Virus genome (UHGV): UHGV-0138922
Direction: 5' to 3' (one strand)
From: a virus
DNA length: 36,008 nucleotides
The translations under genes were made by a program, and so were the position numbers. Positions 1 through 35,129 of the stretch are shown here, piece after piece. Each line of letters starts with the position of its first letter. The first letter of the stretch is position 1. The notes beneath the pieces were generated by a model. That model did no database searches. It saw only the letters and a program-made list of their open reading frames with translations, and had not been told where the DNA came from.

Positions 1-26
1 CGACAGAGGATAGAAAACTCGTTCAT
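1..26 (-). CDS. ycdY: 5' end of host YcdY-like gene, partial (continues beyond window start)
   Basis: Minus-strand ATG at 24-26 reads MNEFSILCR...; host-like GC content; sits directly downstream of the YcdX-like stop codon. Confidence 0.45.
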
Positions 27-49
27 TAATATATTTCCATTACTAGTAA

Positions 50-391
50 TTAAAGGTCTGCAAATTCCGCAATCGGTGCCATACCGCGAGATTCAAGGAA
101 GTTCAGTAAGCGGCGCGGAGAAACATTCAAAATGCGCTCTGGCGGAAAATCTACCGCGTCGAGGATTTTAAGACACTCTTCAAATTCACCCATGGTAAAC
201 GCGGTGTGAGAATCCGAGCCTAATGCCACCCAACCTCCAGCGTCACGTACCGCTGCGGCTACCGCACGACAATTGTCTTCACTTCCCTTACGTGAGTGTA
301 AAAAAGAGGAATTATTGATTTCCAGCGCCACCTGATGTTTCGCGGCTGCTTCAGCAACGGCTTTAACATCTATTTCATATTTCGGATTGCC
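50..391 (-). pseudogene. ycdX: 3' fragment of PHP-family phosphoesterase gene (YcdX-like), truncated at the prophage junction
   Basis: ORF-track protein from [29 protein letters not shown] through the GSDSH motif to ...PIAEFADL looks like the C-terminal ~115 aa of a PHP-domain protein; the upstream 55 codons of the 170-aa ORF are AT-rich and antisense to gene 431-700; GC content drops sharply near 392. Confidence 0.6.
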
Positions 392-430
392 TAATATCAT
401 GTACCCACAATAACACGAGAGGATACAACG

Positions 431-700
431 ATGAACATTACCAAAGCAATCCATAACTATGCTCGCCGCCGTGGAATCGAACTTCAACTCGAAGATGAGC
501 AGGTTAGATTCTGGGAGACTGAACAAGATTGTGAATGGATGTTCAGCTATTCGATTGCTCAATGTGGTTGCTTGTTCTGGAAAGGTAATGTGTATCTTCC
601 CCGCGATATTAAAGAAGAACTTCCGGCGATGATTGGCACCGATAAGAAGTTAAAGGAAGTCTTAGATTTTATCCACAAAGAGTTTATTAGCAAGAAGTAA
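431..700 (+). CDS. Hypothetical 89-aa Cys-containing protein at prophage end
   Basis: ORF with GAGAGGA ribosome-binding site about 8 nt upstream of ATG 431; followed by a hairpin terminator. Confidence 0.55.
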
Positions 701-1657: not shown

Positions 1658-1677
1658 ACGCGGTAGGGGCTTTTTTG
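1641..1677 (+). terminator. Rho-independent terminator
   Basis: GCCCCTA...TAGGGGC stem followed by TTTTTTGTTT. Confidence 0.6.
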
Positions 1678-1689
1678 TTTGGAAATGGT

Positions 1690-3369
1690 ATGAAAACTAA
1701 ACTGTATTCGTATATTCGCTTCTCGTCTATGCGTCAGAATGATGGTTCGAGTTATGAACGACAAATCAGGATGGCTAGAGAGATTGCGGCAAAGTATGAC
1801 CTTGAACTGGTAAATGATTATCAGGATCTGGGTGTATCTGCGTTTAAGGGTGCTAACTCTAAAACAGGGGCGCTATCTCGTTTCCTTGATGCAATTGGTA
1901 GATCCGTTCCTGTTGGTAGCTGGCTATTCATCGAAAACTTGGACCGTTTATCCCGTGCCGATATTGTCAGTGCGCAGGAGTTATTCCTTTCAATCATCCG
2001 TAGGGGAATAACCATTGTTACTGGCATGGATAACAAGATCTACTCGCTGGATACTGTTACCGCTAATCCGATGGACCTGATGTTCTCCATCCTTTTATTC
2101 ATCCGTGGTAATGAGGAAAGCCAGACTAAGCGCAATCGTACTAACTCAAGCGCACTGATTAAGATTAAAGCCCATCAAGAAAATCCCCAGAATCCGGCAG
2201 TGGCAATCGAGGAAGTTGGAAAGAATATGTGGTGGACGGATACCACTTCCGGTTATGTGCTGCCTCATCCGGTGTACTTCCCTGTTGTTCAGGAGATTGT
2301 GGAATTACGGAAGAATGGACGTTCAACCGCCGAAATACTGGATCACCTTAACGAGACTTATACACCGCCACCAGCGGTTAGCAACAAGAAGCATTCAAAA
2401 TGGTCACGGGCAATGGTTGAAAGGTTGTTTCATACCCGCGCTTTGATTGGTATCAAGGAGGTCTCTGTAGATGGCGTTAACTATGAGTTAAAGGATTATT
2501 ACCCTCGTGTTATTGATGACCCTACGTTCTATCACCTTAAGAAAAATATTGGTGCTAGAGCATGGAACTTCGGAGACAAGGAAGAAGTTAAACCGATCCC
2601 CCTGCTTAGTGGTATTGGCCTATTGAAATGTGATCATTGCGGTTGCGCTATGGTTAAAGTGAAGGGAACGAACAAACGTTCTGACCAGTATCGTTATACA
2701 TGTGATGCGACCCGTTCACGTAGACTTGATTGCGAGCATCCAAACTGGAGTTTTCGAGGTGATCAATTAGAGAAAGCTGTATTGCAATTGCTGGCTGATA
2801 AAATCTGGATTGCTGAGGACAAGGCTAATCCGGTTCCGGCGTTGAAAGTACAGGTTGATGAAATATCACGCAAGATTGATAACCTGATTGCCCTTTCTGC
2901 TATGACAGGAGCAACGAAGGAGCTAGCCGATCAGATTACTACCCTCAATAGCGAGCGTGAAACACTCTACAATCAGATCAAGATGGCAGAAGAGGAAATG
3001 TATTCTGTTGACTCTCAAGGCTGGGAGAAGCTCGCAGAATTTGATTTAGAAGATGTTTACAACGAGGAACGACTAAAGGTCCGGTTTAAGATTAAGCAAG
3101 CTCTAAAGCGGATCGGGTGTAGCAGGATTGACAGAAACAAAAACTTGTTTGTACTGGAATACATCGATGGAAAGACCCAGAGAGTTGTAATAGAAAATTC
3201 AAGAGGAACGAGGAAAGGACAAATCTTTGTCGATTTGAAAACTATCAATGATAGGCAGATTCTGGAGAGTAACGGGCTTGTTCTGCATCCATGTTTAGAC
3301 ATGCTGACAGATAAGAACTGGAAACCAGAAGAGGAAATACCAGGTCCATTACAGGAATTTGGAATTTAA
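1690..3369 (+). CDS. Large serine recombinase (phage integrase)
   Basis: N-terminal resolvase-type catalytic motif YSYIRFSSMRQ; long recombinase domain; Cys-rich zinc-ribbon (CDHCGC...YRYTCD...C) and C-terminal coiled coil; ATG 1690 is the likely start (track start 1675 is TTG). Confidence 0.88.
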   Translation: MKTKLYSYIRFSSMRQNDGSSYERQIRMAREIAAKYDLELVNDYQDLGVSAFKGANSKTGALSRFLDAIGRSVPVGSWLFIENLDRLSRADIVSAQELFLSIIRRGITIVTGMDNKIYSLDTVTANPMDLMFSILLFIRGNEESQTKRNRTNSSALIKIKAHQENPQNPAVAIEEVGKNMWWTDTTSGYVLPHPVYFPVVQEIVELRKNGRSTAEILDHLNETYTPPPAVSNKKHSKWSRAMVERLFHTRALIGIKEVSVDGVNYELKDYYPRVIDDPTFYHLKKNIGARAWNFGDKEEVKPIPLLSGIGLLKCDHCGCAMVKVKGTNKRSDQYRYTCDATRSRRLDCEHPNWSFRGDQLEKAVLQLLADKIWIAEDKANPVPALKVQVDEISRKIDNLIALSAMTGATKELADQITTLNSERETLYNQIKMAEEEMYSVDSQGWEKLAEFDLEDVYNEERLKVRFKIKQALKRIGCSRIDRNKNLFVLEYIDGKTQRVVIENSRGTRKGQIFVDLKTINDRQILESNGLVLHPCLDMLTDKNWKPEEEIPGPLQEFGI

Positions 3370-27747: not shown

Positions 27748-29655
27748 TTAGAACGATGTTACCCAGCTACGGCCTCTATTTGGGCGTCTGGCGATGTTTT
27801 GACGTTGTGGTCGTGTGATTGGCTTAGTTTCTTCGATTTGCTCGTCAGATTGCGTTTTAGGAGCTTCTACGGATTCTTCGACAACACGGTTTAAGCTGTC
27901 TTTCATTGCAATGAGTTTATCCCATGACATTTTTGAAAGAACGTAGCGAGAAGCAGCATAGCTATAAACCAGACAGTCGAGAGCCTCGTTTCGGGTACTA
28001 CCTGGATTTTTCACCCAACGAACACCAGTAGTAGTACGCTTGATGGATTCACTCAAAAGCTGATCGAGATAATCATCAGGAACGGTTTCTGATATTTCTA
28101 GGCCGATATGAGGATTGTCTTTCAGGTTTCTAACCAGCATTTCACGAACAGCGGATTTACCAACGTTAACACCCAACATAAGCAATTCATGACCACCTGT
28201 GCGGGTAGGTTTAACCGGAATCACTGGAGCATTACCAGATGAACTACCTTTGATAGCGTGTAGGTTCTTCCACTTACCGCAAATACGGTATCCGGCTTGA
28301 GTGAATCGACCGTTTGATGTATCGAGGAAGCTGGCGAGCATTGGTACACGTTCACCATTAACGTTATAGAATTTGGTTTTCTTGAAGTTAACCAGGCGAT
28401 CCCATACAGGTGATTCATATCGTTCACAGTTATGATCGTAAAAGCTGCGGTGATCCAGAATGTAAACCTTATCTTTCGCTACACCTAAGATGGTAGATTC
28501 TGCGCGATCCAATTGCTGGTCAATTCCTGAGCACAAGAAAATTACGTCATCAGGGATATTCTCGATAGAAACATCTGTTTTGAGTTGTTCCAGTTCATTG
28601 GCTTCTACGGCAGTGTCCTGATCATCGTATACCTTACCTAACACGGTGTTATAAAATGATTGTAAATCAAAGGATTGCCACGCATGACTAAAATCAACCA
28701 CACAAGCGCGAATCGTGCTAAAAGGTGAATACAGACGACTGATCCAGAATCCTGCTACTTCACTTTCACGGGTTGCTCTCCACTCGCCTTGCGCTACTGC
28801 CCTGATTCGTTCCCCTTCGGTCCATGCGTTCTTACAGTGGGGGCAAATATAACGAGCGGTATCAGGATCAGGTAAGTTCTTACCATCAATGTTACGCCAT
28901 TCAAATTGAACGTTTTCCCACTCGATCACCTGGTGTTCCCCGCAATGCGGACACGGAACAAAAAACATACGCATGTCGCTTGATAACCATTGCTGGTTAA
29001 TGCTTCCGAGCTTACTGGTCGGGGTACTGGATACGACTAATCGACCTTCATCCCCAAAGGTAGTTAAACGGTTAGCAGCCAGTGCCACCGGATCACCTTC
29101 TTCTGAGGCTGTGGCAGCATCGATTTCGTCAAGTAATCCAACCTTTGCGGTCTTACCACGTAGGGTTGATGGACTGGTAAGCGATACCATGTACAGGAAG
29201 TGATTCGTTTTTAGCTGTAGCTGGTTATTGTTGTTAACCGCATTGCGATCATTCTTGTCTGTAACCACGTCTTTTAATGCATCACATGCTTCGATAGACG
29301 GTCGGATCTTACCAGCGAGATATTGAGACATTTCTTTAGCGGTTGATTGTCCGATAATCATATTGCATGGATCGTTAGCCATCTGGTTAAACAGGATACC
29401 GTTTAGGATGGTAGTTTTTCCGATCTGCGCACTGGTCATCAGAACATACTTTTTCTTGTTCTCAAGGAAAGGAGCATCAATCATGCCTTTCTGGAATGAC
29501 AGCAATTTAACTTTATCCCCAGCTTGAGGACCATCTACCAGCACCATATTCGCTTCGCACCATTCCGATGGAAGGAGTTTAGGCGGTGGCGTAATATATT
29601 TTGCGGCATTTCTAAGAATTCTTTTTAGTTTTGTTTTGTTCGAAATTAGTTTCAT
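27748..29655 (-). CDS. Terminase large subunit (lambda gpA family)
   Basis: Walker A-like TSAQIGKTT, conserved CPHCG zinc-ribbon motif, 635 aa; GAGGGT ribosome-binding site. Confidence 0.88.
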
Positions 29656-29698
29656 TCAAATACCCTCATTACGAAATATGAAGGTATTTATTAAATTG

Positions 29699-29727
29699 TT
29701 GATATTTTGATAAATATGGGTATTAAG
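29699..29727 (+). promoter_or_regulatory. Candidate promoter (TTGATA-N16/17-TATTAA) for gene 29743
   Basis: Hexamers in the divergent intergenic region. Confidence 0.3.
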
Positions 29728-29742
29728 ATTTAAGGGGGGTGT

Positions 29743-30345
29743 ATGCTAATTAACCAACAACAAAGGGATGAATTAGATTTAGCCTTATCTTGTACCGATC
29801 ATGAATATCGTTTGCCAGTCAAGCATAAGCATTTAAAAACCGACTACACAACATCCGGTTTTAGCCGTGAGGAAGCGAAAGAGATTTTAATAGAGTTTTA
29901 CCGCGATAATGGTTATACAGACGTTCACAACTTCTTTAAGAAGCATAGAACATCACATACAGAGTTTCGGAGAGTCCGAGATTGGTTTGATTTTGATATC
30001 AAGCGGTTTTACAGGATTGATGACGGTCCGGTCTATCGGTTGCAATGGAAGCCGATCCGAGAAGTGTTGAAACAGAAGAGATTGAATCACGCTGTTACAC
30101 GCTATCGTAACGAGGCATTCAAGAAAGGCTATGGTGATACAAGGGAATTGTTTGTAGAACTCGCTAACGTGCGTTATAGCCACTATTACAACGATCCTAA
30201 AGGATTCTTCGAAGTGCTTCGCAAGGTTGATATTAGTCGGGGTACATACTATTCACGGTTGAAGAAGTACGGGATTAAGGCAGAGTTCTTCATGACCGTT
30301 GACGACTCACCGATGTTCAAGATAAAATGTAAGTCCTCTAAATAA
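29743..30345 (+). CDS. DNA-binding protein with C-terminal HTH-like domain (200 aa); possible small terminase or regulator
   Basis: AAGGGGGG ribosome-binding site; C-terminal ISRGTYYSRLKKYGI motif shared with two small paralogs. Confidence 0.55.
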   Translation: MLINQQQRDELDLALSCTDHEYRLPVKHKHLKTDYTTSGFSREEAKEILIEFYRDNGYTDVHNFFKKHRTSHTEFRRVRDWFDFDIKRFYRIDDGPVYRLQWKPIREVLKQKRLNHAVTRYRNEAFKKGYGDTRELFVELANVRYSHYYNDPKGFFEVLRKVDISRGTYYSRLKKYGIKAEFFMTVDDSPMFKIKCKSSK

Positions 30346-30380
30346 TATTGAGAATTCACTATTGTTTGGAGGAAACTACT

Positions 30381-30605
30381 ATGACTACTAAAGCTACTCG
30401 CGGACGTCCTTGCCGTTTTGATCGTGAACAACTGGCAGCGATTGTAAAAGCGTACTATCAAGCACCGAAAGGTAAAGCTGAAAAAGAGCAAGTATTGAGT
30501 GAACACGGTATTTCAATCGCTCAATTCTACAAATCACTCCATAAAGTTGATTTGAAATTCTTTGTTCAGGTTGACGGTGAAATGGTAGAAGCAACAGGAA
30601 TTTGA
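30381..30605 (+). CDS. Small HTH-like protein (74 aa), paralog family member
   Basis: MTTKATRGRPCRFDREQLAAIVKAYY...EHGISIAQFYKSLHKV; GGAGG ribosome-binding site upstream of ATG 30381. Confidence 0.55.
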   Translation: MTTKATRGRPCRFDREQLAAIVKAYYQAPKGKAEKEQVLSEHGISIAQFYKSLHKVDLKFFVQVDGEMVEATGI

Positions 30606-30613
30606 TTCTCTAG

Positions 30614-30640
30614 GCCAATCCTTCGGGGTTGGCTTTTTTT
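30614..30640 (+). terminator. Rho-independent terminator (UUCG loop)
   Basis: GCCAATCC-ttcg-GGGTTGGC followed by TTTTTTT. Confidence 0.65.
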
Positions 30641-30654
30641 ATACCTACAGATAC

Positions 30655-30679
30655 AAAAAAGCCCCTGAAATTCAGGGGC
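30655..30679 (-). terminator. Rho-independent terminator for the Rha-like operon
   Basis: GCCCCTG...CAGGGGC palindrome; on the minus strand followed by a U-run (plus-strand A-run 30655-30660). Confidence 0.6.
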
Positions 30680-30687
30680 AAAAATTA

Positions 30688-31515
30688 TTACAGTCCGAAG
30701 TGTTCCAGTGATCCAGCATTCTGACGAATCAGCAAAGCAGTATTATTGACGATTGCTCGTGAGTTGTTAGGTTGTGGCAATTTCAAAGTTGCTGCCTTTT
30801 CTTCTTCAAGCAATCCGAGTTTTACGAGATGCGGGATAGCATCAGCAGTGAACTCGATCTGACCGTGTGCTGACATACGAGCGAACATATAGCCAGGAGG
30901 AAGCAGATCATAGCCGTTAGGCTTACCAGAAGCATCCAGACGACGCTCAAGAACACCAGCAGCACATAATCCTTTCAGAATCATTTGTACCTTCACAGAG
31001 CCTCGTTTTTCGCCCAGAAGACGGGTTAAGCTGTGTGTGTCGATTGCTTTACGTACATGCAATTCAACCAGTTGATTCTTTTCCTGAATCAGTTGTTCGT
31101 TTGCAGCTTCCAGTTCCATTGCCTCGCGAATCCAATCGAGCTTAGTCATGTTTGCGTATGGGTTGACTTGCTGAGAACGCAGTTTTTCATTTTCTTCTTT
31201 CAGTCGTTTCCATTCCTGAATAACAACCATTCGACGCTTAACATCGTAACCAGTGACAAGAGTCAGTGTCAGTTCTTCATCTAAATGATATTCGGTTTGT
31301 TCTCGTCCACACTGATCAAGATAGGTGCGCTCAAAACTGAGCACATCTAATTCCAGAGCATCGAGCATGGATTTAATATCACGTTTAACGTTTTTGTGTT
31401 CTTTTCCGGTAAATTCAGCGATCTGACGAGAAGACATGGTCAGCGGTTTGGTGTTATCAACAACCAGAGACACGGAAGCAGTTTTAGTAGTATTCATAAC
31501 GGTAACAGTATTCAT
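30688..31515 (-). CDS. Rha-family regulatory protein / antirepressor-like
   Basis: N-terminal LTMSSRQIAEFTGKEHKNVKRDIKSM resembles the Phage_pRha motif; coiled-coil middle; AAGGGGAA ribosome-binding site. Confidence 0.7.
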   Translation of the reverse strand: MNTVTVMNTTKTASVSLVVDNTKPLTMSSRQIAEFTGKEHKNVKRDIKSMLDALELDVLSFERTYLDQCGREQTEYHLDEELTLTLVTGYDVKRRMVVIQEWKRLKEENEKLRSQQVNPYANMTKLDWIREAMELEAANEQLIQEKNQLVELHVRKAIDTHSLTRLLGEKRGSVKVQMILKGLCAAGVLERRLDASGKPNGYDLLPPGYMFARMSAHGQIEFTADAIPHLVKLGLLEEEKAATLKLPQPNNSRAIVNNTALLIRQNAGSLEHFGL

Positions 31516-31604
31516 AGTATTAATTCCCCTTAAACGGTTTAATGATTTGGTCCTCCTAGTTCCGGCATCACCACCGGAACAATTTTATTTATAATAGAAA
31601 TTTA

Positions 31605-31937
31605 TTACCAATCGATTTCTACCTGATCTTCTTCATAATAAGGAATCGCATATTCATAACGCCAGTTTTCGATGATTTCACGTTCTTCATTAGTAAGAAG
31701 GTGATTGCTAACTGGAGTCGCATTGTGATTACCAGCTTCGAATTGTTCGCGAACTTCCAGCATTGCATGAATACCAGTTAAGGACATCAGATCAAACGGA
31801 ACATGCATACTACGGGAGATTGTTTCACGGGATACGCCCCAATCATTTTCTACATGGCTAGGGCTTACAGAAACGGTTTTGCCGGAGATTTTAACAGTCC
31901 AGTCATACAGGGATTTAGTGATGGTAAATTCTTTCAT
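31605..31937 (-). CDS. Hypothetical early protein (110 aa)
   Basis: First ORF downstream of a consensus sigma70 promoter; AGAGGATG ribosome-binding site. Confidence 0.55.
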   Translation of the reverse strand: MKEFTITKSLYDWTVKISGKTVSVSPSHVENDWGVSRETISRSMHVPFDLMSLTGIHAMLEVREQFEAGNHNATPVSNHLLTNEEREIIENWRYEYAIPYYEEDQVEIDW

Positions 31938-31993
31938 GTTACATCCTCTTTACAAATCTAGGTCAAATAGGTTCAAAGTTGTCAAGTGCGATA

Positions 31994-32022
31994 ATCATAA
32001 AAAAGTCAGAAATATTTGTCAA
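31994..32022 (-). promoter_or_regulatory. Strong sigma70 promoter (TTGACA-N17-TATGAT)
   Basis: Minus-strand TTGACAAATATTTCTGACTTTTTTATGAT, about 50 nt upstream of gene 31937. Confidence 0.65.
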
Positions 32023-32056
32023 TACCCCTTGACAAGTTGCCAAAGGGTTGACCTCA

Positions 32057-32530
32057 TTAGAGCATTTCTAAGCCATCGTGATAGCCGTAGAAGCCATTCT
32101 GAGAAGAGAAACAGATAGGAGCATAATCATCATCTTCGTCGTCTTCATCTTCGTCATAATCGTTTTTAGGGGCTTCCTGAGCGGTTTCTTTACCGTAGTT
32201 AAACATGGCTTCGTCAATCTCTTGAAGGGTTACGAAACTACCCAAATCCACATCACCGAAACGGACTTCGAACGGCAGATCATCACGAACAATAATTGCT
32301 GGTAGATTCTGGTACTTCGCACGATCTTGATCGGTGAAGCAGTTAACTACGATAGTAGGTTTCTTGTTCTTACAAAACGAATACCAAGCACTAGAAAAGC
32401 TGGATTCATCGGAATCAAAAAGGATGTTATAACCACGTTCAACGAAGATCTTCATTAAACGGTCATTGTGAAAGCTATCTGCATCCAGACCTAACAGGAT
32501 GAAAGGAGTAGTAGTCTTGTTCTTGTACAT
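32057..32530 (-). CDS. Hypothetical protein with strongly acidic C-terminal tail (157 aa)
   Basis: AGAGGA ribosome-binding site before ATG 32530 (track start 32566 lacks one); DYDEDEDDEDDDY tail. Confidence 0.55.
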   Translation of the reverse strand: MYKNKTTTPFILLGLDADSFHNDRLMKIFVERGYNILFDSDESSFSSAWYSFCKNKKPTIVVNCFTDQDRAKYQNLPAIIVRDDLPFEVRFGDVDLGSFVTLQEIDEAMFNYGKETAQEAPKNDYDEDEDDEDDDYAPICFSSQNGFYGYHDGLEML

Positions 32531-32570
32531 AGTTGGTAATCCTCTAAAAGAAAGTGAATCAAACAAATTA

Positions 32571-32846
32571 CACTAGTATTTATAACGAGAATTTTTTATC
32601 TATTTGGAAGTGATTGGTATTCAGTCTGGCTAAAGCCATCCTTCATGTACTAGAACAAGAATTATACAAAACAAATTTTCTTCTATAATAATATTATATA
32701 ATAGTTCTTCGTTTTGATTAAATGATCATCAAACCAGTATTGACGCTCTCCAGAGCGTCTGCGAAGCAATCTATTACCTTCTAGTATTATCAAAGTGATT
32801 CCAACTACCTTTCTAGTAACCAGTTAGTAATCATCTAGTATTAAAT
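32571..32846. promoter_or_regulatory. Cluster of five CTAG-containing sites ([A/T]CTAGTA[A/T]), candidate operators
   Basis: ACTAGTAT 32571, TACTAGAA ~32650, TCTAGTATTA 32781, TCTAGTAAC 32812, TCTAGTATTA 32835; the first overlaps a candidate -10 for gene 32530. Confidence 0.4.
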
Positions 32847-32869
32847 CCCTTTCTAAGAAAATCCTTTCA

Positions 32870-33000
32870 AAAGTGAGTGAACGCCGTAGGCGTGAACGTG
32901 AGCGAAGCGAACTATCCAATCCCTTTCGAATCCTGCTTGCAGGTCTTAGAAGGTGTTGGTGGGCGCTACGCGCACGGCTACGCCGTATTCTTTTTGTGAG
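32870..33000. other. GC-rich hairpin-dense non-coding element (possible small RNA or recombination/packaging site)
   Basis: ACGCCGTAGGCGT, GCGCTACGCGC and ACGGCTACGCCGT hairpins; direct repeats GTGAGCGAAGCGAAC / GTGAGAGAAAGCGAAC; local GC far above surroundings. Confidence 0.35.
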
Positions 33001-33118
33001 ATCTTTCTTGAACGCTAGTGAGAGAAAGCGAACAAAAAGGAGAACGTTAGTTCGAGTTTTATATTCTATGGTCTGTGTGGTCAAATGCTTTTGCAAATCA
33101 TACACTTACGTGATTGAA

Positions 33119-33240
33119 GTGTAGGGTTAGTGTAGGTGTGTAGGTTTCATAGTGTAGGTTTGGACATGTTCTAGTGTAGGTTTACTGGCTAGTGTAGTGT
33201 AGGCCAATCCCTTTCATGTGTAGGTTTGTAGTGTAGGTTT
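33119..33240 (+). repeat. Iteron array: 8 direct copies of GTGTAGG(TTT)
   Basis: Copies start at 33119, 33130, 33138, 33152, 33174, 33197, 33218, 33231. Confidence 0.8.
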
Positions 33241-33330
33241 TTCATCAAAAATTTTGATAAAAAATTCTTGTATATTATTTAACCAAAAAATCATCAAAAA
33301 TCGCTGTAAGTTAATGATTTAAAAGGAATT
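33241..33330. promoter_or_regulatory. AT-rich tract with ATCAAAAATTTTGAT palindrome and repeated ATCAAAAAT half-sites
   Basis: Perfect 15-bp palindrome at 33244-33258; half-site copies near 33292 and 33395. Confidence 0.55.
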
Positions 33331-33354
33331 GTCAAAAGGTCACCGTGCTATAAT
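33326..33354 (+). promoter_or_regulatory. Promoter with extended -10 (TGcTATAAT)
   Basis: TG at 33346-47, TATAAT at 33349-54; weak -35 GAATTG/TTGTCA. Confidence 0.55.
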
Positions 33355-33434
33355 AGGTTATAAAGGTTGATAATCCTGATCAGCCGTTTTCACACAAAAA
33401 TTTTGATAGTCATTTCTCGCCTAGATCATGGGTA

Positions 33435-33463
33435 TTGACAATAGTCAAGAACTATTTTATACT
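33435..33463 (+). promoter_or_regulatory. Sigma70 promoter (TTGACA-N17-TATACT)
   Basis: Hexamers read directly; about 340 nt leader to gene 33806. Confidence 0.6.
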
Positions 33464-33805
33464 TTTTCTCACTGGTGGGGGTTGAAATTTTCAAAACAAT
33501 CCCCATATAGATGATAGGCAAGAATTTCTCTTGTATAAATACATGCATGAAAATGATTGTTCACTTCTGAAATCTCCAGATTCACTGTTAATTCATACAG
33601 CACTGGTTAGATATACAGTGCTTTTTCGGTTGAATAATGTACGAATTGATTAATTATTAATCTTCTCTTTAGCAATTCGTGCTCCCACTGATCGGATATA
33701 CAGTAGTTTTACAGGGTTTTTCGAAAATCATTTTATAAATAGATATGTCGAGAGCGAAAAGCTCTTTTTAAAGTTTTCATTATTCCACAATTGAGGATTC
33801 TACTT

Positions 33806-33985
33806 ATGGCTAGACCTGTTAAATTTACCCGTGAAATGATTGTTGATATTGCTAAACGCTTTTATGGTGACACTGAACGAGGCGGTGAGAACTTCTTTAA
33901 GAAGGAAGGAATTGATAGAAGCGGATTCTACAAACTAATGAAGAAATACGAGATTCAAGTAAAGATTAACGTTCAAGTTTGTTAA
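33806..33985 (+). CDS. Small HTH-like protein (59 aa), paralog family member
   Basis: MARPVKFTREMIVDIAKRFYGD...EGIDRSGFYKLMKKYEI; GAGGA ribosome-binding site before ATG 33806. Confidence 0.55.
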   Translation: MARPVKFTREMIVDIAKRFYGDTERGGENFFKKEGIDRSGFYKLMKKYEIQVKINVQVC

Positions 33986-34028
33986 TCACCTTTCACTGAG
34001 AATTATATGATGGCTTTAAAAATAAAAA

Positions 34029-34057
34029 AGCCTCCCTGTTGGCGCAAGGAGGCTTTT
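34029..34057 (+). terminator. Rho-independent terminator
   Basis: AGCCTCC...GGAGGCT stem followed by TTTT. Confidence 0.55.
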
Positions 34058-34103
34058 GGTATGAAACATTAAAAACTAACACAGAGTATTCAGGAGTATT
34101 TAT

Positions 34104-35129
34104 ATGAAAAATTCTAAGCGCATCACCTTCAACCTGTTCATCAAATCCAATGGCAAACTGAACATTACTGTTATGGAAGGTAAAGCAAGCAAACAAGACA
34201 AATCCTTTGAAGTAGTATCCGGTAAGACTCTGACCGAAATGCGTCAGAATGCTGGCATCAAAGACGGTGCTGAATGGCAGATCACTAACCGTTTCGACAA
34301 ACGTCACGTTAAACCTACACTGGTAGAAGGTGAATCCGTTTATTGCTTCGCTCGTGCTGTTAAAGCTGATGAGACTTACTATCTCGCTGTTGTTAAAACT
34401 GCTTCCGGCTTCCGTGCTGTAATGCATCACAAGAGCAAGCGTAACGAATACGGTGTAGAGACCCAGGAAGTTGCAAAACGCTTCCGTACTGTTGCTACTG
34501 AATCCACTGTAAAGGATGTTTCTGGTACTGTTAACACCGCTAAAGGTGGTTCCTTCTACAACCATGCATTACAGGTTACTTCCTCCTTCTTCTGCAAAAA
34601 AGAAGCACAGAAAGAAGTTGCTCCGGTGGTAGTTGAAGAAGTTAAAGAAGAAGTTGCAGTGGTTGAATCTTCCGAAGTTGAAGCACTGAAAGCTGAACTG
34701 ACAGCAGTTAAAGCGGAAAATGCTTCCCTGAAAGAAGAAAACGCATCTCTGAAAGCAGAACTGGCAGCACAGGAAACCACTTTCGAAGCAGCGGTTGAAG
34801 TTGAAGCAGTTGAAGAAAAATCCATTGATGAAGAACTGGAAGAACTCCTTAACTATCGCTGGGGTAACGGTGAAGTAGAAGAACAGGAAAACGAGAAAGA
34901 AGCTGATCCGGTAGTAGTTCCGGTTGAAGTTGAAGCAGAATCCGCACCAGTTACTAACTTTGAAACCCTGCGCAATAACTTTATGGCTAAATTCAAAACT
35001 ACTTGGGAAGATACCGAAGAAGAACAAGAAGATATTGAAGTAAACGAAGACGAGATCCGAGAAGCACAGATGGCACTGCATGACGCTATCTATGACACTA
35101 ACTACAGCGCCTACGCATACGCAGCTTAA
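34104..35129 (+). CDS. Acidic coiled-coil protein (341 aa) with host-optimised codon usage; function unknown
   Basis: CAGGAG ribosome-binding site; codons dominated by CGT/CTG/GGT/TTC/AAC/GAA unlike neighbouring phage genes; C-terminal half Glu/Ala/Val-rich heptads. Confidence 0.65.
   Translation: MKNSKRITFNLFIKSNGKLNITVMEGKASKQDKSFEVVSGKTLTEMRQNAGIKDGAEWQITNRFDKRHVKPTLVEGESVYCFARAVKADETYYLAVVKTASGFRAVMHHKSKRNEYGVETQEVAKRFRTVATESTVKDVSGTVNTAKGGSFYNHALQVTSSFFCKKEAQKEVAPVVVEEVKEEVAVVESSEVEALKAELTAVKAENASLKEENASLKAELAAQETTFEAAVEVEAVEEKSIDEELEELLNYRWGNGEVEEQENEKEADPVVVPVEVEAESAPVTNFETLRNNFMAKFKTTWEDTEEEQEDIEVNEDEIREAQMALHDAIYDTNYSAYAYAA

What the first reader, a model, noticed from the sequence alone, without database searches (positions are those of the whole stretch)
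29743..33985. Three paralogous HTH-like proteins surrounding the regulatory region
The C-terminus of the 200-aa protein (PKGFFEVLRKVDISRGTYYSRLKKYGI), the 74-aa protein (EHGISIAQFYKSLHKV) and the 59-aa protein (EGIDRSGFYKLMKKYEI) share an RP-x-F-x-RE...GI-x-R/A-x-FYK motif reminiscent of winged-helix/transposase-type HTH domains. Three copies within 4 kb flanking the iteron/operator region suggests a family of site-specific DNA binders (regulators, excisionase-like recombination directionality factors or terminase small subunits).
Basis: partly seen in the sequence, partly recalled or inferred. Interest (0 to 1): 0.45.

Follow-up and report, generated by a model that had tools for sequence, protein, structure and literature searches.

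The report
Paralogous small HTH proteins in prophage
Three genes of an uncharacterised E. coli prophage encode copies of one small DNA-binding (helix-turn-helix) module, four copies in all because the largest protein holds two; they belong to a family with no database entry, their targets are unknown, and comparison of related prophages argues that two of them (A and C) do not bind the nearby DNA repeats.

Summary
A (29743-30345, 200 aa), B (30381-30605, 74 aa) and C (33806-33985, 59 aa) are homologous: shuffle z 4.3-11.4 and hhalign probabilities 85-97%. All three are under purifying selection (dN/dS 0.09-0.14).

No Pfam, PHROGs or NCBIfam family is matched. An exhaustive profile search of 1.84 billion proteins gave 14 hits.

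The family is confined to one group of Escherichia, Shigella, Salmonella and Proteus prophages integrated in ycdX by a large serine integrase. A C-like gene also occurs in a T4-like phage.

Mosaic comparison of 38 related loci with the window shows that iteron type follows the downstream 341-aa protein exactly. It does not follow C or A, so the implied iteron link fails for those two.

A always lies head-to-head with the gpA-type large terminase, which has no recognisable small subunit. C always precedes the iteron-linked protein. B is dispensable.

The most likely roles are small regulators or accessory DNA binders. A as an unusual terminase small subunit remains open.

The parts
29743..30345 (+). 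Gene A, 200 aa. It has a conserved N-terminal helix (res 3-16) followed by two tandem copies of the HTH+beta module. It is transcribed divergently from TerL.
   Evidence: ORF. Homologues in Escherichia, Salmonella and Proteus at 42-89% identity, all named 'hypothetical'. AF2 pLDDT 75, pTM 0.66. dN/dS 0.14. Adjacent and divergent to TerL in every lineage examined.
29860..30042 (+). A, module copy 1 (about res 40-100): helices 42-56, 61-67 and 72-82; strands 86-92 and 97-99.
   Evidence: BLASTP second HSPs to B and C. AF2 secondary structure. hhalign vs the B/C profile: probability 97%, E 7e-11.
30139..30321 (+). A, module copy 2 (about res 133-193): helices 134-147, 152-161 and 166-175; strand 180-186.
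   Evidence: hhalign vs B/C: probability 96%, E 3e-9.
30381..30605 (+). Gene B, 74 aa: a disordered basic arm (TRGRPCRF), three helices (15-27, 32-41, 46-55) and a beta-hairpin (61-64, 67-70). It forms an operon with A.
   Evidence: AF2 pLDDT 80. The helix-3 sequence GISIAQFYK is conserved in nearly all complete B homologues. B is absent from Salmonella L004 and from L046.
30612..30643 (+). Intrinsic terminator that closes the A-B operon. A second terminator on the opposite strand (30679-30661) closes the Rha operon.
   Evidence: Terminator scan.
29656..29742 (.). 87-bp spacer between the TerL and A start codons. Its roughly 60-bp core is identical in loci whose A proteins are only 47% identical. 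Short versions in L004 and L046 contain the perfect palindrome ATATTTATAAATAT. No consensus sigma-70 promoter was found.
33806..33985 (+). Gene C, 59 aa. The arm MARPVKFTRE is invariant or nearly so in C homologues, including the one in a T4-like phage. C is an HTH with a C-terminal strand, and is the first gene of the operon that continues with the 341-aa protein.
   Evidence: dN/dS 0.09.
33750..33769 (+). Short hairpin plus T5 run directly upstream of the C ribosome-binding site. Equivalent hairpins precede C or C-like genes in L002, L004, L040 and L042.
   Evidence: Read from sequence. The terminator scan did not flag it.
34104..35129 (+). The 341-aa protein downstream of C (not a paralogue). 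Its type co-varies perfectly with iteron type, so it is the probable iteron-binding protein.
   Evidence: Its N-terminal ~90 aa are homologous to the protein that follows the C-like gene in the T4-like contig (E 5e-10). All homologues are named 'hypothetical'.
33119..33237 (+). Eight GTGTAGG(TTT) iterons. They are context only; the covariation data indicate they are not the target of A or C.
   Evidence: (15 copies in the window against 2.1 expected).
27748..29655 (-). Large terminase subunit (gpA ATPase and nuclease domains), the first gene of the roughly 22-kb head-tail-lysis strand. No recognisable small-subunit gene lies beside it.
   Evidence: Pfam 1.6e-56 and 2.6e-44; PHROG 15 at 1.7e-137. 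The downstream 164-aa protein is a head-tail joining protein, not TerS.

Best explanation
A, B and C are products of gene duplication within one prophage lineage. All are built from a single module of about 55-60 residues: an optional basic Arg-Pro arm, a three-helix HTH and a beta-hairpin. A is a fused tandem pair of this module.

I read them as DNA-binding regulatory or accessory proteins placed at two control points of the phage.

- C is the fixed first cistron of a portable cassette. The cassette runs: structured GC hairpins, iterons, promoter, leader ending in a hairpin plus T-run, C, then the iteron-specific protein. C most likely controls or assists that cassette, in the way Cro/CII-like or plasmid Cop-like small regulators do, rather than recognising the iterons itself.
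- A is fixed back-to-back with the large terminase gene at the head of the late strand, and B is its dispensable companion. A most likely binds DNA in the service of late-operon expression or packaging.

Shown: homology, predicted fold, selection, gene order, and lack of covariation with the iterons. Inferred: DNA binding itself, and every functional assignment.
For: Homology and duplication.

Fold:
- AF2 models of B (pLDDT 80) and A (pLDDT 75) show three helices plus a hairpin, twice in A.

Sequence:
- Weak, consistent resemblance to HTH_Tnp_1 and HTH_7.
- Weak resemblance to the NtrC/Fis-type helix 'GIsrstlYrklkklgI'.
- Remote profile hits are arrays of the same HTH module.

Real genes: dN/dS 0.09-0.14. 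They are conserved in 58 of 5426 complete E. coli genomes and in Salmonella and Proteus.

Position:
- A is divergent from TerL in all seven lineages examined.
- C immediately precedes the p341-like gene everywhere. This includes a T4-like phage contig, where iterons and GC hairpins lie upstream again, and an unplaced contig.

Not iteron binders.
Against: No DNA target has been identified.
- The recognition helices of A vary strongly between types (for example DISRGTYYSRLKKY vs DISWTTFRQRIRKY), yet the TerL-A spacer stays identical. A is therefore unlikely to read that spacer in a type-specific way.
- C cassettes are exchanged independently of both leader types upstream of C, so an operator in the leader is not indicated either.

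The invariant N-terminal peptides (MARPVKFTRE in C, MLINQxxRDELELALSC in A) could equally be protein-protein contact sites.
Confidence: 0.45

Rival explanations
1. A is the missing terminase small subunit (or cos/pac-recognition factor) of this gpA-type packaging system. Its two HTH modules would bind the packaging site and its invariant N-terminal helix would contact TerL. Expression would come from a bidirectional late promoter shared with TerL, as the P2 TerS gene M sits in the operon divergent from TerL (recalled from knowledge of P2, not tested here).
For: - No TerS is recognisable anywhere near TerL. The gene after TerL is a head-tail joining protein.
- A is the only universally present gene next to TerL, in every lineage, with a 69-88 bp spacer. 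B is dispensable, so only A qualifies.
- In the relative with the closest TerL (the DCP80 record, 43% identity), two small unrelated genes occupy the upstream position. They have no homologue in the window, which is compatible with non-orthologous replacement.
- The spacer palindrome ATATTTATAAATAT gives the same element on both strands.
- A is 200 aa, a size typical of TerS.
Against: - No hit to any TerS family in Pfam, PHROGs or NCBIfam.
- The model shows no long helical oligomerisation domain.
- A type and TerL type assort independently. The same A type occurs with TerL variants that are 58-59% or 95-100% identical to the window's TerL, and a 47%-identical A occurs with a 95%-identical TerL.
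- A is on the opposite strand to TerL.
Confidence: 0.25
2. B or C is the recombination directionality factor (excisionase) for the large serine integrase at 1675-3369.
For: - A large serine integrase is present (Resolvase, Recombinase and Zn_ribbon_recom domains; PHROG 95 at 2e-63) and no RDF is annotated.
- From my own knowledge, known RDFs of serine integrases are small, diverse proteins without a common family. A 59-74 aa protein in an early operon would fit.
Against: - No match to excisionase or RDF families.
- Neither gene is adjacent to int.
- The integrase region is a single type (87-98% DNA identity) across genomes, while C occurs in three types at 47-58% identity and B in two types at about 70%.
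- B is absent from some complete-looking prophages.
- C-like genes occur in a T4-like lytic phage; no integrase appears in the 13.6-kb stretch examined around the gene.
Confidence: 0.07
3. The paralogues are the iteron-binding proteins of the origin-like region, that is, replication initiators or centromere binders. This is implicit in the first reader's title.
For: - The genes flank the iteron block.
- C is the first gene downstream of the iterons, resembling the tubC-tubR or parC-parR layouts (recalled, not tested).
- C-like genes again follow iterons in the T4-like contig.
Against: - Of the 33 related loci in which C lies beyond the 150-169-aa gene, 31 also hold a p341-type gene; with the window these make 32. 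In all of them iteron type follows p341 type: 16 with type a and GTGTAGG, 15 with type b and CAGGGGCAA, and 1 Salmonella locus with CACGGACAA.
- The same 60-aa C type sits with GTGTAGG iterons in L023, L025 and L033-L035, and with CAGGGGCAA iterons in L002, L007, L010 and others.
- A is identical in L002 and L003, whose iterons differ.
- B lies 2.5 kb away and was not tested for covariation with iteron type.
Confidence: 0.03

Closest known systems
[not shown]
   Same: - A basic (G)RP arm precedes a compact three-helix HTH.
- Helix 3 has the form S-x-x-T/F-[FY]-[YR]-x-[LM]-K.
- These are the only Pfam families that several members touch (5 and 4 of 27 members).
   Different: - Scores are far below the gathering thresholds: 13 bits against 24.1, best E 0.017-0.059.
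- These are free-standing proteins with no catalytic domain.
- They carry a C-terminal beta-hairpin that those domains lack.
Fis/NtrC-type C-terminal HTH (for example the Aquifex NtrC1 DNA-binding domain, PDB 3e7l, 4fth, 4l5e)
   Different: The match covers only 22 residues, with E 0.3-0.4 against the PDB. No Pfam HTH_8 hit was reported. There is no AAA+ or Fis context.
Monomeric two-HTH DNA binders (MarA/Rob/SoxS, Myb R2R3, CENP-B, and the two-repeat protein 2lvs_A)
   Different: - A's two units are clear sequence duplicates, each with its own beta-hairpin.
- The relative orientation of the two units is only a prediction (pTM 0.66).
Lambda Nu1 and other terminase small subunits
   Same: The position next to a gpA-type TerL, a size of about 200 aa, and an HTH-type DNA-binding unit.
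   Different: - Opposite strand to TerL.
- No family hit and no fold hit.
- No oligomerisation helices in the model.
- No covariation with TerL.
Small first-cistron regulators of phage early or replication operons (lambda Cro/CII, P2 Cox, 186 Apl; recalled, not tested by sequence)
   Same: C is a roughly 60-aa HTH protein. It is encoded first in the operon, behind a leader that holds a boxA-like sequence and a terminator-like hairpin, and directly before the origin-specific protein. This parallels cII before O behind nutR-tR1 in lambda.
   Different: There is no sequence or family relationship. No operator has been identified. Here the iterons lie upstream of the operon, not inside the initiator gene.

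Membership tests
Winged-helix / tri-helical HTH fold class | Three-helix bundle with a helix-turn-helix, followed by a beta-hairpin 'wing' | tested here: met
   [not shown]
Pfam HTH_Tnp_1 (IS3-type transposase HTH) and HTH_7 (resolvase HTH) | Score at or above the Pfam gathering threshold | tested here: not met
   B scores 13 bits against a cut-off of 24.1. The best E among the 27 family members is 0.017 for HTH_Tnp_1 and 0.059 for HTH_7.
Terminase small subunit | Match to a TerS family or fold | tested here: not met
   [not shown]
Terminase small subunit | Gene adjacent to the large-subunit gene and co-inherited with it | tested here: inconclusive
   A is adjacent to TerL in all lineages, but on the opposite strand. 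A type and TerL type assort independently.
Terminase small subunit | Binds the cos/pac site, forms a ring oligomer and stimulates TerL | not testable with these tools
   This needs biochemistry. The cos site of this phage has not been located.
Excisionase / recombination directionality factor | Family match (HTH_17, Xis, AlpA and similar), or linkage and covariation with the integrase | tested here: not met
   No family hit. The integrase is a single type while B and C types vary. A C-like gene occurs in a T4-like phage.
Iteron-binding initiator or centromere-binding protein | Protein specificity type co-varies with iteron sequence | tested here: not met
   Iterons follow p341 type in all 32 informative loci (the window included). 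C and A are uncoupled from iteron type. B was not tested.
Cro/CII/Cox-like early regulator (functional class) | Small HTH protein as first cistron of an early operon, binding operators at early or lysogenic promoters | tested here: inconclusive
   The position criterion is met for C. No operator that co-varies with C type was found.

The most novel reading that the evidence does not exclude
Two novel readings are not excluded.

(a) A is a new kind of terminase small subunit for gpA-type terminases. It would be a monomer or pseudo-dimer of two duplicated winged-HTH modules, encoded divergently from TerL.

(b) C together with the 341-aa protein, the iterons and the GAGCGNAGCGA-loop hairpins forms a previously undescribed portable origin or segregation-type cassette. 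The cassette moves between temperate enterobacterial prophages and T4-like lytic phages, and C is its conserved small DNA-binding subunit.
Probability: 0.25. Interest if true: 0.55.

Novelty: new member of a known kind. Interest (0 to 1): 0.3.

Why it matters
On its own this is a modest result. It defines an unannotated, lineage-restricted HTH family that could be given a name, a domain boundary and a profile, and it corrects the architecture of its largest member to a tandem duplication.

It gains value as an entry point to a prophage group found in about 1% of complete E. coli genomes, in which almost every early gene is 'hypothetical'. In that group:
- the TerS is missing;
- the repressor and late regulator are unknown;
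- an iteron cassette is shared with a T4-like phage.

Knowing that the iterons belong to the 341-aa protein rather than to A or C narrows the experiments needed to assign the origin, packaging site and switch of this phage group.

Tried and rejected
**Searches that found nothing**
- DNA search of the region against the phage and plasmid collections: no match.
- tblastn of A, of the T4-like C-homologue and of its neighbour against 50,697 phage records: no match.
- A genome-contig scan with the A alignment: nothing.
- Foldseek of the A model against BFVD: best E 0.21.
- Literature search for 'ycdX', 'prophage' and 'serine recombinase' together: none of the ten best-ranked papers contains 'ycdX'.
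- Rfam on 32500-33850: only a sub-threshold STnc250 hit at 24 bits against 42.

**Ideas tested and dropped**
- The T4 oriE, repEA and repEB idea. T4 oriE does have iterons (PMC3016281). However, repEA and repEB are tiny ORFs antisense to gene 5. The module in the T4-like contig lies between genes 3 and 2, so there is no evident relationship. The primary paper was not held.
- GGGTATT as a common operator. It is enriched (9 against 3.8 expected), with 4 copies in the control region. Two of these are the shared GGGTATTGACAA -35 regions of the two strong promoters, and one is the TerL Shine-Dalgarno sequence. No link to the paralogues was found.
- TATAAATA as a promoter class. There are 6 copies, all intergenic, but the count is not significant (8 of 100 shuffles reach it).
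- Contig ends as evidence for cos. Four contigs end at different points in the non-coding region, so these are assembly breaks.
- Covariation of A type with the spacer or 5'UTR, and of C type with its leader: none found.


Full report
**Context**

The window is a chromosomal prophage of the E. coli type.
- Bases 1 to about 695 are host DNA (ycdY and the start of ycdX). They match 5411 of 5426 complete E. coli genomes.
- The rest matches 58 of 5426 genomes; the best is FDAARGOS_1267 at 97%. There the prophage ends against a truncated ycdX.
- Nothing similar exists among 50,697 phage records or 72,556 plasmids at the DNA level.

Gene content:
- a large serine integrase (1675-3369);
- CapR/MUG113-type endonuclease genes;
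- a UvsW-like helicase and UvsW.1;
- an endolysin;
- a long minus-strand tail-head block that starts with a gpA-type large terminase at 27748-29655.

The finding lies in the early/control region to the right of TerL. Its order is: A(+), B(+), then Rha/Ant-like (-), a 110-aa gene (-) and a 169-aa gene (-), then 1.2 kb of non-coding DNA, then C(+), a 341-aa gene (+) and an 80-aa gene (+).

Yes. Pairwise local alignments of B, C and the two halves of A all exceed shuffled controls (z 4.3 to 11.4). Profile-profile comparison of family alignments gives probabilities of 85-97%. HMMs built from any one member find the others, and find nothing else in a six-frame translation of the window.

BLASTP of B or C against A gives two separate matches, at residues 40-93 and 133-187. 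The AlphaFold model of A repeats the same pattern of three helices and a hairpin twice.

All three genes evolve under purifying selection, with median dN/dS of 0.09-0.14 over 146-242 locus pairs.

**What is the module?**

The model of B (pLDDT 80) has a disordered basic arm (TRGRPCRF), helices 15-27, 32-41 and 46-55, and a hairpin at 61-70.

At the sequence level:
- Pfam gives only sub-threshold HTH_Tnp_1 and HTH_7 hits.
- The PDB profile search touches NtrC-type HTHs and a two-repeat HTH protein at E 0.1-0.4.
- PHROGs and NCBIfam give nothing.

An exhaustive profile search of 1.84 billion representative proteins returned 14 hits. Apart from family members, these are proteins made of arrays of similar HTH repeats. 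The kind of domain is ordinary, but the family is undescribed and narrowly distributed. Word-indexed searches found only 'hypothetical' proteins from Escherichia, Shigella, Salmonella and Proteus.

**Gene order**

In seven divergent lineages A is always divergent from TerL, with a 69-88 bp spacer, and C always directly precedes the 309-380 aa protein. B follows A except in two lineages that lack it.

A C-like protein (64 aa, identical MARPVKFTRE arm, E 2.7e-8) lies in a T4-like phage contig between gene-3-like and gene-2 homologues. It is preceded by GC hairpins and AGCGATTAC iterons. It is followed by a protein homologous to the N-terminal part of the 341-aa protein (E 5e-10).

A more remote member on a 1.1-kb contig shows a hairpin plus T-run before the gene. 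The protein after it shares a coiled-coil stretch with p341 and has a broadly similar N-terminus.

C is therefore part of a cassette that travels between phage backbones.

**Do the paralogues bind the iterons?**

I fetched 34 IMG/VR loci to add to four others, typed every gene, and counted iterons. Thirty-two loci, the window included, were informative for the link between iterons and the 341-aa protein.
- GTGTAGG iterons occur only with type-a 341-aa proteins (16 loci).
- CAGGGGCAA iterons occur only with type-b proteins (15 loci).
- A Salmonella locus has CACGGACAA iterons with a third type.

C is uncoupled. The 60-aa C type occurs with GTGTAGG iterons in L023, L025 and L033-L035, and with CAGGGGCAA iterons in L002, L007, L010 and others. 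Since C lies between the iterons and the 341-aa gene, the perfect linkage of the two flanking elements points to selection. I take the 341-aa protein to be the iteron binder.

A is identical in L002 and L003, which have different iterons. A and C are thus not the iteron-specificity determinants. B was not tested in this way.

**Other covariation tests were negative**

- A type is independent of TerL type.
- The core of the TerL-A spacer is identical between loci whose A proteins share 47% identity and have different recognition helices.
- C type is independent of the two leader types upstream of it; the exchange point lies at the hairpin just before C.
- The integrase region is a single type while B and C types vary.

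No cis element could be assigned to any paralogue.

**Interpretation**

I commit to DNA-binding regulatory or accessory proteins (confidence 0.45).
- C acts as the small first-cistron regulator or cofactor of the iteron cassette.
- A (with optional B) acts as a factor tied to the late/packaging operon.

The main rival (0.25) is that A is the missing terminase small subunit. In favour: no TerS is recognisable, A is the only universal neighbour of TerL, and the small genes upstream of the nearest relative's TerL (the DCP80 record) have no homologue here. Against: there is no family or fold support, the strand is opposite, and A does not co-vary with TerL.

An RDF role (0.07) and iteron binding (0.03) are unlikely.

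**Verdict**

This is a new, unnamed member of a very common protein kind, of moderate-to-low interest in itself. The surrounding control region is more unusual than the proteins.

Noticed in passing
window 33119-33237 and 34104-35129: Iteron sequence co-varies perfectly with the type of the 341-aa protein across 32 informative loci: GTGTAGG with type a, CAGGGGCAA with type b, CACGGACAA in Salmonella. The protein has a variable N-terminal domain, an acidic coiled coil and a conserved C-terminal MLHDxMYxTN motif. It is probably the iteron-binding initiator or a similar factor. All homologues are named 'hypothetical'.
   Followed up: yes
L040 4893-6625 (T4-like phage contig), compared with window 32870-35129: The whole cassette recurs between gene-3-like and gene-2 homologues of a T4-like phage: GC hairpins, iterons, promoter, C-like gene and a p341-N-terminal-like gene. 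It appears to be a portable module shared by lytic and temperate phages.
   Followed up: partly
window 32780-33050; L005 (DCP80) 360-1030: This is element-rich non-coding DNA with CCTTTCTAGTA-type CTAG repeats and small GC hairpins. The motif GAGCGNAGCGA (window 32900-32910) is found in 36 of 46 loci. In L002, L004 and DCP80 it forms the loop of hairpins whose stems differ. In DCP80 the same kind of DNA lies directly upstream of the small genes and the gpA TerL, so it could be packaging-related (cos) or origin-related.
   Followed up: partly
window 33667-33683 and 33750-33769: The 17-mer CTTTAGCAATTCGTGCT, which contains a boxA-like CTCTTTAGCAA, is exact in 33 of 46 loci, including Salmonella. 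It is followed by a conserved hairpin plus T-run just before C. The layout recalls a nut site followed by a terminator, which suggests antitermination or attenuation control of the C operon.
   Followed up: partly
window 32027-31994 (-) and 33430-33463 (+): Two near-consensus divergent promoters share the 12-mer GGGTATTGACAA at the -35 region. The rightward promoter overlaps a TTGACA-NN-TGTCAA palindrome that is conserved in related loci. The leftward promoter lies in TTGTCAA-N6-TTGACAA. These are likely operators of an unidentified repressor.
   Followed up: partly
window 29656-29742: The core of the TerL-A spacer is 100% identical between loci whose flanking genes have diverged to 47% (A) and 59% (TerL) protein identity. 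Short versions hold the perfect palindrome ATATTTATAAATAT, which carries TATAAATA on both strands. No consensus sigma-70 promoter for the 22-kb late strand was found.
   Followed up: partly
window 1-700: The window begins in host DNA (ycdY at 50-562 on the minus strand, plus part of ycdX). The left prophage junction is near 695. The prophage interrupts ycdX and uses a large serine integrase.
   Followed up: partly
window 27748-29655 and surroundings: No terminase small subunit gene is recognisable next to the gpA-type large subunit. The downstream 164-aa gene is a head-tail joining homologue.
   Followed up: partly
L005/L047 (phage DCP80, PQ671644.1): The record is filed as a T4-like Gaprivervirus. 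However, it starts with a lambda-like TerL, portal and capsid block related to this prophage, and it contains two rIIA genes in opposite orientation. It may be a chimeric assembly or a true hybrid.
   Followed up: no
window 32057-32566 (-): The 169-aa protein (probable start at ATG 32530) has an alpha/beta-looking N-terminal part and a very acidic tail (DYDEDEDDEDDDY...). It matches no family and is highly variable between loci (38-99% identity). It is a candidate immunity or anti-defence determinant.
   Followed up: no
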